64,000 bases of DNA from Eledone cirrhosa (taxonomy: Eukaryota), in assembly GCA_964016885.1 (NCBI GenBank), contig OZ024742.1:200570001-200634000 (forward strand). The letters are read 5' to 3'. Within the stretch, counting starts at the first letter, position 1, and each line of letters opens with the position of its first letter. The notes beneath the pieces are model-generated. The model saw nothing but the letters and a program-made list of their open reading frames with translations. It was not told the origin of the DNA and ran no database searches. The translations under genes and the position numbers were made by a program. This document shows, piece after piece, positions 46,720-50,099 of this stretch.

Positions 46720-48068
46720 GAATTAAAAAACACACTTATCAGCAGAAACTACCCACCATCCCTAATCACGTGCCCTAAAACTAGACATCCAGGAATTCAG
46801 ACACCCCAAACCCAGGAATGAACCGCAACAAAAAACTCTTCCATACATCTCCACACACAACCCCCTCAACAAAGAGGCATTCGAGACCATCCTCCAGAAC
46901 ATTCCTTTACTAAAAAGAGACCCAAGAATGAACAAAATCCTCCAAACACACAACATCATAAAGAGCAAAAGACAACCTAAATTCATAAAAAACATCCTCA
47001 CACAAGCCAAAATCCAACAAACCCTCACAATGAACCCTACAGTAACAAAATGCGGAAGGCCCAACTGTGGCATATGCATAAATCTAATAGAACGTTCAAC
47101 ATTCCATTTTAAACAAGGACAGCGTTTCACAGTTAAACACAACTTTACATGTGCATCTGAAAAGCTTATCTATGTTTTGACTTGCTCAGGTTGTCAAGAG
47201 CACTAGGACAGACAAAAAAACAGCCTCCGTCAACGTATGACCGTCCATAAATCACAAATTAAAATACAGGAATACAGAAAGATTGCATTTAGTGAACATA
47301 TTGCCAATTGTGCTCACAACCAACATCCAAACTTTAAAATTTTCCCCATTTACAAATTCATAGACAACGCTATTTTCGTCCAACGTACCAATAAGGAAAC
47401 ATATTTCATTAATAAATTCCAACCCCTACTTAATGCTCTAAAAATCGGACCAATCTAAAACTGCAACAAACAATCAAACATTTACAAGAGTTACCTCCTC
47501 ACACCCTACCTAATCCTTTTTCTTAAATAAATTAAATATCATCCAGCAAGATTGCTTCCCCCTGCATGAATCATAACAGCCAGTGGAAAAGGATTTATAA
47601 AGAGGGAAAAATAAAGGGTTGGGGGTTTCCAGTGGCTATCACTGGTTGTTATGATTCATGAGACGTTTTCCTAGATATATCGTAGTATCATACACTTTAA
47701 AACTTTTAGAACAGTTACAGTATGCAACGTTTTTTCTTACTCACACATTCTCTAATGAATTTATTACGTTTTCGCATTTTCTCATAAATAGGCTATATAA
47801 GTAAAATTTTCTCTTGGGTTAATCACTACCTTGATTAAATCTTAACCATTTAACATCTCAGAGTATGTCATGTATCATTATATTTTGTCTGATGAGGACG
47901 TACTGTTGTACATCCGAAATATGTATAATAAAATGTAATTGACCATTTTAATAATACTTATATTTTAATATTAATAATTCCAGAAAAATATTTTTACGGT
48001 TGAGTGCTTCCAATCTACTGTAAAACTAATTCTTTGACATAATCATTGAATATTGATTAACACTTTAA
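46720..48068 (+). mobile_element. Penelope-like element 4 (Neptune-like), 5'-truncated
   Basis: LPYISTHNP, SKRQPK, KCGRPNCGIC, FTCASEKLIYVLTCSGC, R.RMTVH, KETYFINKFQPLLN; followed by a hammerhead and (TA)n. Confidence 0.88.
47882..47934 (+). ncRNA. Type I hammerhead ribozyme, intact core
   Basis: attttgt-CTGATGA-ggacgtac tgtt gtacatcc-GAAA-tatgta-TA-ataaaat. Predicted cleavage after 47927. Confidence 0.85.
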
Positions 48069-48277
48069 TATATATATATATATATATATAGTAATAATAA
48101 TAAATTTCAAGACTAAAATCCAAAGAGGGCTCGATAAGGATAAATATATATCAAATATATAAGAACCGTAGAGCAAAGATTTATTAAAATAACAGATTAA
48201 AGTTTAAGCAAAGAATCGCTGCTTTCACCCTTAACGGGATCTTCTGAAACAAACAAAGTCAATCTGTAAACGCAGAA

Positions 48278-48430
48278 GTGGATATTTCAAAAAACGTTGC
48301 AACCGCTAAAACACTCACAGTGGTTAAGGATTTCGAAGTTGATGTCATCCTCAATGCCCGTAAGTCGGTGATTAATTTCGACGACTCTATTTGGATTAAA
48401 AAATCCAATAGAACCCCATTCGACGTGAGT
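48278..48430 (+). mobile_element. PLE RT fragment related to PLE2
   Basis: [28 protein letters not shown] aligns by eye with PLE2 IILTARKTILEFNNEYWTRADTSNNFDI. Confidence 0.7.
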
Positions 48431-48850
48431 ATGTATATAGTTTACTACATCTTATATGTATATATATAATTTTACATATTCGTATGTATAAATATTTAAT
48501 GTATATATAGACATATACACATATACACACATATACCCCCCCCCCCACATATATATATATATATATATATATATATACAGTATATATATATATATATATA
48601 TATATATATATATATATATATATATATATATATATATATATATATATACAGTATATATTTATTAAAATAACGCTCTACGGTTCTTATATATTTGATATAT
48701 ATTTTCCTTATCGAGCCCTCTTTGGATTTTAGTCTTCAATTTTATTATTATTACTATACAGTATATATATATATATATATATATATATATATATATATAT
48801 ATATATATACGATATTAATAAATGGAAACTATATTTATAAAACCATATTT

Positions 48851-48913
48851 ATTTCATTATACATATTTCAGGGATACCAAATTAAATTATGGTATGCCTT
48901 CATCAGACAAAAT
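48851..48913 (-). ncRNA. Type I hammerhead ribozyme (inverted twin of 49719-49781)
   Basis: Reverse complement of the 49719 motif with the core intact. Confidence 0.8.
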
Positions 48914-49718
48914 ACAATATATAACAGTTTTACAAATAAGCTTTGACGTACTCATTTAAAATGCGACCATTATTTTTGGAAGCCATCTGGATAGTGAATT
49001 GTTTATATTATTTTAATAAGTCTTAGTGTTAAGGACAATTAGAAAAAGACGGAGAGAAAGAAAAAAGACGGAGAGAGAGAAAAAAAAGAAAAAGAAAAAA
49101 ACGTGGAGAAATATCGGCGAGAGAGAAATGCATGGAGAATAAAGGAAGAGATAAATAAAGACAGGAGGCAATAAAGAAAAAAGAAAAAACTAAACATATA
49201 ATCATTATTAAACAATGTTTAATTTCTCATATTATATATTTATGTCTCATTCATGAATATTAATATTTATATTTTTATTATTCATTTCATATAAATTGTT
49301 AACTCAACTTAATATGACATGACGTAAAGTTTTCATTATCTCCCCCTCTCTCTATATATTATTTCTCTCTCTTGAGTCTTTCTACCTGTCTGATGATTTG
49401 ATATCTCTCTGTTGCTTTCCTCTGTTTTTCTTATTTCTTCCTTTTTTCTTTTTTCTTTATTTCCTCCTGTCTTTATTTATCTCTTCCTTTTTTCTCCATG
49501 CATTTCTCTCTCTCCGATATTTCTCCACGTTTTTTCTTTTTCTTTTTTTTTTCTCTCTCTCCGTCTTTTTTCTTTCTCTCCGTCTTTTTCTAATTGTCCT
49601 TAACACTAAGACTTATTAAAATAATATAAACAATTCACTATCCAGATGGCTTCCAAAAATAATGGTCGCATTTTAAATGGGTACGTCAAAGCTTATTTGT
49701 AAAACTGTTATATATTGT

Positions 49719-49781
49719 ATTTTGTCTGATGAAGGTATACCATAATTTAATTTGGTATCCCTGAAATATGTATAATGAAAT
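49719..49781 (+). ncRNA. Type I hammerhead ribozyme, intact core
   Basis: attttgt-CTGATGA-aggtatacca..tggtatccct-GAAA-tatgta-TA-atgaaat. Confidence 0.82.
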
Positions 49782-50037
49782 AAATATGGTTTTATAAATA
49801 TAGTTTCCATTTATTAATATCGTATATCTACTCCAAATATTTGTCGAGTGCTTTATATCAGTTATAAAAATATTTACTTGTTGTATCCCAACAATTTTAA
49901 ATAGAACTTTTGCATATATATATATATATATATATATATATATATATATATATATATATATATATATATATATAACCTGCCAATACACGAATTGAAATAT
50001 CAAGACCGCAGAAGTATGTCATATATCAAATCATATA

Positions 50038-50099
50038 TTTTATCTGAAGAGGACGTACTGATAAAACAACACAGTACCTTCGAAATATATATAATAAAG
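50038..50099 (+). ncRNA. Type I hammerhead ribozyme, intact core
   Basis: ttttat-CTGAAGA-ggacgtactg..cagtaccttc-GAAA-tatata-TA-ataaag. Confidence 0.82.

What the first reader, a model, noticed from the sequence alone, without database searches (positions are those of the whole stretch)
47882..50099. Four intact hammerhead ribozymes within 2.2 kb, on both strands, in a probable nAChR intron
Seen: complete CUGANGA...GAAA...UH folds at 47882(+), 48913(-), 49719(+) and 50038(+), with different stem II sequences that each still pair. Known: Penelope-like elements carry type I hammerheads whose short palindromic stem III favours dimeric cleavage. Inference: the minus-strand copy is in the sense orientation of the receptor pre-mRNA and could cleave the intron, while the adjacent plus-strand copies (49719, 50038) could release a ~320-nt retrozyme-like RNA.
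Basis: partly seen in the sequence, partly recalled or inferred. Interest (0 to 1): 0.72.

Follow-up and report, generated by a model that had tools for sequence, protein, structure and literature searches.

The report
Penelope retroelement hammerheads in nAChR intron
Four real hammerhead-ribozyme motifs sit in the first intron of an octopus-type acetylcholine-receptor gene, but they are the tail ends of three common Penelope-type jumping-gene families, and the one copy that faces the receptor message is predicted to be locked in a long hairpin, so the cluster is most likely ordinary retroelement debris.

Summary
In detail: four complete type-I hammerhead motifs at the stated places, far above chance, inside intron 1 (about 88 kb) of a minus-strand nicotinic receptor gene. 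The interpretation mostly does not. The motifs are pseudo-LTR ends of three high-copy Penelope-like families (Hydra clade by motifs): fixed 3' ends in (TA)n, ragged 5' ends, RT and GIY-YIG upstream in longer copies. HH2 and HH3 are one insertion plus its inverted copy (97.7% over 390 bp), a layout seen in 14 of 28 family-B loci. In the receptor pre-mRNA the antisense arm is made first and is predicted to pair with HH2 completely. The 319-nt HH3-HH4 piece joins two different families, is not a repeat unit and lies antisense to the gene. A sample of 59 stretches suggests about 130,000 such motifs in this genome, and five gene bodies show no significant lack of sense copies (23 sense, 29 antisense). 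Cleavage and expression are untested. The scan has noted hammerhead-bearing Penelope repeats elsewhere in this genome many times, and an octopus Hydra element with a hammerhead is in print.

The parts
47877..47939 (+). HH1, type-I hammerhead motif of family A (C3 47889, predicted cut after 47927); antisense to the nAChR gene
47626..48090 (+). 5'-truncated 3' end (pseudo-LTR) of Penelope-like family A, ending in (TA)n; 91-94% identical to other copies
47565..47625 (-). short inverted piece of family A at the 5' junction
48802..49189 (-). inverted, 5'-truncated copy of family B carrying HH2
48850..48914 (-). HH2, hammerhead motif in nAChR sense orientation (C3 48906, predicted cut after 48858); predicted fully paired with the antisense of HH3 in the pre-mRNA
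49187..49975 (+). 5'-truncated 3' end of Penelope-like family B, ending in (TA)n at about 49914-49975; its 3' 311 nt are 98-99% identical to other copies
49718..49782 (+). HH3, hammerhead motif of family B (C3 49726, predicted cut after 49774)
49977..50162 (+). 5'-truncated 3' end of Penelope-like family C, next to family B's (TA)n tail; 95-97% identical to other copies
50038..50099 (+). HH4, hammerhead motif of family C (C3 50044, predicted cut after 50093)
48090..48760 (.). a further Penelope-like insertion between HH1 and HH2: inverted 3' end (48090-48305), RT fragment (48304-48433), 3' end on + (about 48660-48760); no canonical hammerhead found in it
46700..47458 (+). broken Neptune-like GIY-YIG fragment just upstream of HH1; not the parent of HH1
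38220..64000 (-). part of intron 1 of the nAChR alpha-like gene (the intron runs on to about 62 kb past the window's end)
38175..38219 (-). nAChR exon 2 (45 nt, AG/GT borders)
27426..28463 (-). nAChR large coding exon (PF02931, PF02932)

Best explanation
The four motifs are the hammerheads in the 3' pseudo-LTRs of three Penelope-like retroelement families, likely of the Hydra clade, which likely landed one after another in (TA)n runs of nAChR intron 1 and are probably silent passengers there. Shown: each motif lies 55-140 nt before a fixed 3' end that runs into (TA)n, copies are ragged at the 5' end, longer copies carry RT and GIY-YIG coding sequence on the same strand, and HH2/HH3 are a forward copy with an inverted truncated copy at its 5' side. 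Inferred: reverse transcription primed at a cut in (TA)n starts at the element's 3' end and often stops early, so only the hammerhead-bearing tail is left. Each insertion leaves a (TA)n run that is a target for the next one, which builds the cluster. Inferred from the literature on this class: in the active element the hammerheads cut as dimers through the palindromic stem III, slowly and perhaps only with the element's protein, to process tandem element transcripts. Predicted: in the receptor pre-mRNA HH1, HH3 and HH4 are antisense and HH2 is held in a 390-bp duplex, so the intron is not cut at this place.
For: High copy number: 40 of 40 scored candidates match for each family, about 3,150 first-look candidates each. 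Fixed 3' and ragged 5' ends in 19 loci per family. RT plus endonuclease upstream on the same strand, with DNA shared across copies from ORF to hammerhead: family A L061-L064, L066 (87-93%), family C L073-L078 (81-87%), family B L072; an RT also follows the pseudo-LTR in L032 (B) and L013, L014, L016 (A). Hydra motifs CxCX5C in all three families, DKT in B, CxxC and CxH around E and N. Divergent inverted pair in 14 of 28 family-B loci. All 26 paired motifs in five gene bodies have the inverted copy upstream, none downstream. Structure is kept across families: among 74 distinct motifs chosen on core and stem III only, stem I pairs 1-4 hold in 64-69 and stem II pairs 2-3 in 68-70 with several pair types, and pair 4 is a conserved mismatch (5 of 74 paired); stem III is self-complementary in 33 of 34 motifs chosen without asking for it. 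HH2 core paired at P=1.0. No significant sense depletion: 23 sense to 29 antisense (p=0.49), unpaired copies 10 to 16 (p=0.33).
Against: No cleavage or expression data. Folding is an equilibrium prediction and ignores proteins and A-to-I editing, which could loosen the duplex. The strand test is small: the interval for the sense share of unpaired copies is 0.20-0.59, so mild depletion is not excluded, and the point estimate leans that way. Gene spans for the C6 and C17 channels were inferred from scattered domain hits, and nested genes were not excluded. Pfam recognised neither RT nor endonuclease in the window's Hydra-like fragments; clade assignment is by motifs and comparison by eye, with no tree. 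The family-B link from ORF to 3' hammerhead rests on one long copy, and about 430 nt after its stop codon were not seen in a second copy. All long copies seen are broken; no intact element was recovered.
Confidence: 0.88

Rival explanations
1. HH2 cuts the nAChR pre-mRNA in intron 1 and so tunes receptor expression.
For: HH2 is intact and on the sense strand of a real intron. Intronic self-cleaving ribozymes that act on their host message are reported, e.g. CPEB3 (PMC10274809, search listing and start of abstract only).
Against: HH2 is predicted to be fully paired with an arm transcribed before it. Its monomer stem III is not predicted. It is a young copy, nearly identical to many others. Minimal Penelope hammerheads showed no monomer and low dimer activity (PMC4209133). 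The Anolis element's hammerhead did not cut without protein, and no RNA-seq ends were found at its site (PMC11167929). Three unpaired sense motifs in the same intron would be better candidates.
Confidence: 0.04
2. HH3 and HH4 fold as a heterodimer on an antisense transcript and release a 319-nt RNA that could circularise like a retrozyme.
For: Same strand, cut sites 319 nt apart; cross pairing is formally possible with 8 stem III pairs and stems I of 6 and 8 pairs. If transcription began inside family B after 49190, HH3 is predicted to be free of the long duplex.
Against: Two different families joined by (TA)n; junction seen in 1 of 40 scored candidates; no tandem unit and no similarity between the piece and the 319 nt before it beyond 12 nt. 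The predicted cofold of HH3 and HH4 is not the double hammerhead. A plus-strand transcript from further upstream would trap HH3. It needs antisense transcription, which is not shown.
Confidence: 0.05
3. The motifs are chance matches in A+T-rich DNA.
For: No Rfam hammerhead hit; the region is about 25% G+C.
Against: 1 motif in 200 shuffles against 5 observed; 0.05 per shuffle against 26 in the genome sample; paired changes across families.
Confidence: 0.01

Closest known systems
Hydra clade of Penelope-like elements, including Hydra-1_Obim of Octopus bimaculoides (Craig et al. 2021, PMC8557442; passages, section 11 and rows and passages of supplementary file 1 seen)
   Same: RT followed by a C-terminal GIY-YIG; CxCX5C linker; DKT; no CCHH; (TA)n targets; canonical hammerhead near the 3' end; 5' truncation with an inverted 5' copy.
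   Different: Different families: their hammerheads differ from that of Hydra-1_Obim in stems II and III. They are longer than the 'generally <3 kb' described (family B at least 4.2 kb, with 1.3-1.9 kb behind the ORF in the three families). Family B reads R-W-R where the clade has RWK. They are far more abundant than the 'small number of additional families' suggests.
Minimal and short-stem-III type-I hammerheads of metazoan PLE pseudo-LTRs (Cervera and de la Pena 2014, PMC4209133; parts 1-2 of 4 read; Lunse et al. known only through the review PMC6765202, passages)
   Same: Type-I topology, palindromic stem III, long stem II, mostly single or opposite-strand copies 100-700 bp apart from truncated elements.
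   Different: Here an 8-nt palindrome, an AUA triplet and a conserved 1x1 mismatch at stem II pair 4; A10.1-U11.1 in family B in place of the usual G-C. Estimated count (about 130,000) exceeds the 4,000 and 9,000 that paper calls remarkable.
Metazoan non-LTR retrozymes (Cervera and de la Pena 2020, PMC7229834, passages; Li et al. 2026, 10.64898/2026.07.22.740005, part 1 of 5 and passages)
   Same: Type-I hammerheads on one strand about 320 nt apart; Penelope-like origin.
   Different: Retrozymes are tandem repeats of one unit; the HH3-HH4 piece is a single join of two families.

Membership tests
Type-I hammerhead ribozyme | Core CUGANGA, GAAA and NUH in type-I order with stems I and II | tested here: met
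Type-I hammerhead ribozyme | Stable stem III as a monomer | tested here: not met
   pair probabilities at most 0.001; an 8-nt self-complementary segment allows a dimer instead
Type-I hammerhead ribozyme | Match to an Rfam hammerhead model | tested here: not met
Type-I hammerhead ribozyme | Self-cleavage | not testable with these tools
   needs an in vitro assay
EN+ Penelope-like element | RT followed by GIY-YIG endonuclease upstream of the hammerhead on the same strand | tested here: met
   longer copies of A, B and C; absent from the window's truncated copies
EN+ Penelope-like element | 5' truncation, partial tandems and inverted 5' copies (pseudo-LTRs) | tested here: met
Hydra clade | CxCX5C linker | tested here: met
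   seen in A (L062, L064), B (L072) and C (L075, L076)
Hydra clade | DKT in place of DKG | tested here: met
   family B (L072); the A and C copies translated do not reach that far
Hydra clade | RWK motif | tested here: inconclusive
   family B reads R-W-R at this place; not reached in A or C
Hydra clade | CCHH absent; CxxC and CxH around conserved E and N | tested here: met
   L072 and L076 translations
Hydra clade | Insertion into (TA)n | tested here: met
Hydra clade | Generally shorter than 3 kb (a tendency, not a strict criterion) | tested here: not met
   family B at least 4.2 kb in L072
Hydra clade | Placement in an RT tree with reference elements | not tested
   reference sequences were only seen as supplement text
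Non-LTR retrozyme | Tandem repeat of one unit, each with a hammerhead | tested here: not met
Non-LTR retrozyme | Abundant linear and circular monomer RNA | not testable with these tools
   needs RNA data

The most novel reading that the evidence does not exclude
An octopod genome carries about 130,000 intact Penelope hammerheads (about 44 per Mb) whose stems I and III cross-pair between families, so unpaired sense copies in long neuronal introns, or neighbours such as HH3 and HH4, cut nascent RNA as heterodimers or in trans when element protein is present, while the common back-to-back duplication masks about half of the copies in a duplex.
Probability: 0.08. Interest if true: 0.65.

Novelty: new member of a known kind. 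Interest (0 to 1): 0.22.

Why it matters
The locus itself matters little: it is one of very many like it. Two by-products are of some use. First, the estimated load, about 130,000 motifs in 3.0 Gb, matches the 126,247 reported for the axolotl in a genome about a tenth the size (axolotl size recalled). That makes this genome a good place to test, by intron strand bias and 5'-OH end mapping, the open question of whether Penelope hammerheads cut at all in cells. Second, the back-to-back layout always puts the antisense arm first in a read-through transcript (26 of 26 paired motifs), which would mask these ribozymes and supply long double-stranded RNA for editing.

Tried and rejected
Rfam scans: no hammerhead family reached. 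HH1 as the pseudo-LTR of the adjacent Neptune-like fragment (46700-47458): rejected, since that protein hits only the window's own locus among L001-L060 and long family-A copies carry a Hydra-type ORF. Family A as a short non-autonomous unit and 49187 as the 5' end of family B: rejected, other copies run on upstream. A fifth hammerhead at about 48247(-): it reads CAGAAGA in the window and in most relatives, with no stem III or stem I match, so it was not counted. Hyper-editing of the B hairpin arms (lead from an earlier finding): the arms differ by 6 mismatches of mixed type, no run of A-to-G. Pfam on ten translated pieces found only the receptor domains above cut-off. Literature searches: 'hammerhead ribozyme'+'Penelope-like'+'octopus' gave one paper, Craig 2021; 'octopus'+'hammerhead ribozymes' gave one unrelated listing; the O. 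vulgaris repeat paper PMC13282606 has no occurrence of 'hammerhead' or 'ribozyme' in its main text. These searches found no genome-wide hammerhead count for an octopod; subscription papers, Lunse et al. (not held) and bioRxiv supplements were not seen and could hold one. One of 60 sample stretches did not exist and was dropped. Seven planned C14 stretches were left out of the strand test.

Full report
Observation. Rfam has no hammerhead hit at gathering score in the window or among 40 matches with E up to 10 in 46500-52000. HH2 and HH3 lie in the arms of an inverted repeat that align at 97.7% over 390 bases and differ by one base in stem II, so there are three independent motifs, not four.

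Host gene. The ORF at 27252-28520(-) carries PF02931 and PF02932; its best relative is an Octopus bimaculoides nAChR at 89% identity, so the genome (3.0 Gb) is inferred to be an octopod's. With that protein as a guide, exons lie at 38219-38175, 31074-30964, 28463-27426 and from 25769, and exon 1 lies about 62 kb past the window's end. The finding is therefore in intron 1, about 88 kb long, of a minus-strand gene. This rests on homology and splice-site letters, not on RNA.

What the motifs belong to. Each motif's surroundings are a high-copy repeat: 40 of 40 scored candidates matched for each of three queries, from about 3,150 first-look candidates each. In 19 loci per family the shared sequence stops shortly after the hammerhead and is ragged upstream. 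I fetched 18 longer stretches chosen for long upstream sharing. RT and GIY-YIG coding sequence lies upstream on the same strand, with DNA shared from ORF to hammerhead in family A (L061-L064, L066; L065 shares only the untranslated part) and family C (L073-L078; L073 gave no hit in the strict motif scan). Family B shows it in one of six (L072); L071 has an ORF 3.4 kb upstream that I did not link, and L067-L070 gave no linked ORF. An RT also follows the pseudo-LTR in L032 (B) and L013, L014, L016 (A), the tandem layout of Penelope-like elements. The translations show CxCX5C in all three families, DKT and R-W-R in B, no CCHH, and CxxC/CxH around E and N. These are the Hydra-clade marks in Craig et al. 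2021 (PMC8557442), whose supplement lists Hydra-1_Obim from O. bimaculoides with a hammerhead and (TA)n targets. No tree was built. The Neptune-like fragment just upstream of HH1 is a separate element.

How common is the cluster. In 59 evenly placed 10-kb stretches (60 asked, one absent) the scan found 26 motifs against 0.05 per shuffle: 44 per Mb, or about 132,000 in the genome (bootstrap 71,000-198,000; positions were systematic, not random). One of the 59 stretches (L122) has four motifs in 2.7 kb as two back-to-back pairs. Fourteen of 28 family-B loci have the same divergent pair within 1.6 kb. Rough family sizes from 1.52 Mb of fetched DNA are 4,000 (A), 51,000 (B and close relatives) and 6,000 (C), from only 2, 26 and 3 hits. 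For comparison, 4,000 and 9,000 minimal hammerheads were called remarkable in coelacanth and Xenopus (PMC4209133), and 126,247 were counted in axolotl (PMC7229834).

Is the fold kept. Among 74 distinct motifs picked on core and stem III alone, stem I pairs 1-4 hold in 69, 68, 65 and 64 and stem II pairs 2-3 in 70 and 68, with several pair types; stem II pair 4 is paired in only 5. Picked without a stem III condition, 33 of 34 motifs have a self-complementary segment there. These counts are of related copies, so they are not independent events. They indicate selection on the active elements, not on these four copies.

Mechanism. Shown: the anatomy above. Inferred: target-primed reverse transcription from the 3' end into (TA)n, early stops, and an inverted 5' copy, as described for this class; each insertion leaves a (TA)n run that can take the next. 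Monomer stem III is not predicted to form in any of the four (P at most 0.001), in line with dimer cleavage. In print, minimal PLE hammerheads gave no monomer and low dimer activity, a review says the same of short-stem-III forms (PMC6765202), and the Anolis Poseidon hammerhead cut only with protein added, was not needed for insertion in vitro and left no RNA-seq ends (PMC11167929).

On the minus strand the antisense of the HH3 arm is transcribed before HH2, and the fold of 48700-49950 pairs all seven core bases of HH2 with it at P=1.0. The next sense motif found is at 67150, 18 kb upstream. In 830 kb of five gene bodies (this gene, two other nAChR genes, two ion-channel genes whose spans were inferred) there are 52 motifs, 23 sense and 29 antisense (p=0.49); without an inverted partner, 10 and 16 (p=0.33, interval 0.20-0.59). 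All 26 paired motifs have the inverted copy upstream. So sense copies are tolerated; mild depletion is not excluded, and retrozymes were reported depleted from Xenopus introns. The 319-nt piece joins family B's tail, (TA)n and a truncated family C copy. Only the window spans that junction among 40 scored candidates, and there is no tandem unit. A heterodimer is allowed by pairing (8, 6, 8) but is not the predicted cofold, whereas the HH1 homodimer does fold as a double hammerhead.

Earlier notes. 1,096 of 2,401 notes on this genome fit 'hammerhead Penelope'; none lie near this window. They are unchecked AI notes and are not counted as support.

Verdict. Real motifs, known class, new families; ordinary at this locus. 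Interest 0.22. The genome-wide load and the self-masking layout are the parts worth following.

Noticed in passing
window 11270-14540 (-): A broken Hydra-type Penelope element (RT and endonuclease, 14493-12296) with a fifth hammerhead at 11362 about 930 nt behind its stop codon; palindrome AUGCGCAU. A (TA)n run between them means the two may be separate insertions.
   Followed up: partly
L173 and L189/L190, L206 (G000 C3, introns of two other nAChR genes): Mirror-image arrays of small hammerheads with an ACUAGU stem III segment, several spaced 443-467 nt apart: true tandem, retrozyme-like arrays, unlike the HH3-HH4 piece.
   Followed up: no
window 46092-46281 (with hairpin 46173-46281), 51376-51480 and 11040-11205: Three copies of another (TA)n-flanked repeat ending in a long perfect hairpin that includes a GAAA; not classified.
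   Followed up: no
window 51171-51278 and 51567-52080: A 50-bp perfect inverted repeat and a nest of direct and inverted repeats, probably more fold-back insertion junctions.
   Followed up: no
window 48090-48305 (-): A common repeat end with a hammerhead-like stretch whose core reads CAGAAGA in nearly all copies seen; often sits at inversion junctions.
   Followed up: partly
window 8850-10370 and 42615-43355: Further Hydra-type endonuclease fragments, one duplicated in inverted orientation.
   Followed up: no
G000 C3 200.5-202.8 Mb and C11 23.6-23.9 Mb: A cluster of neuronal-type nAChR genes with very long first introns around the window, and a tandem array of over 20 single-exon, distant nAChR-like genes on C11, which recalls the cephalopod chemotactile receptor array (name recalled, not tested).
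   Followed up: no
L075:3608-5357 (+): A 583-aa open Neptune-type RT plus GIY-YIG frame, 49% identical to the window's fragment at 46700-47458.
   Followed up: no
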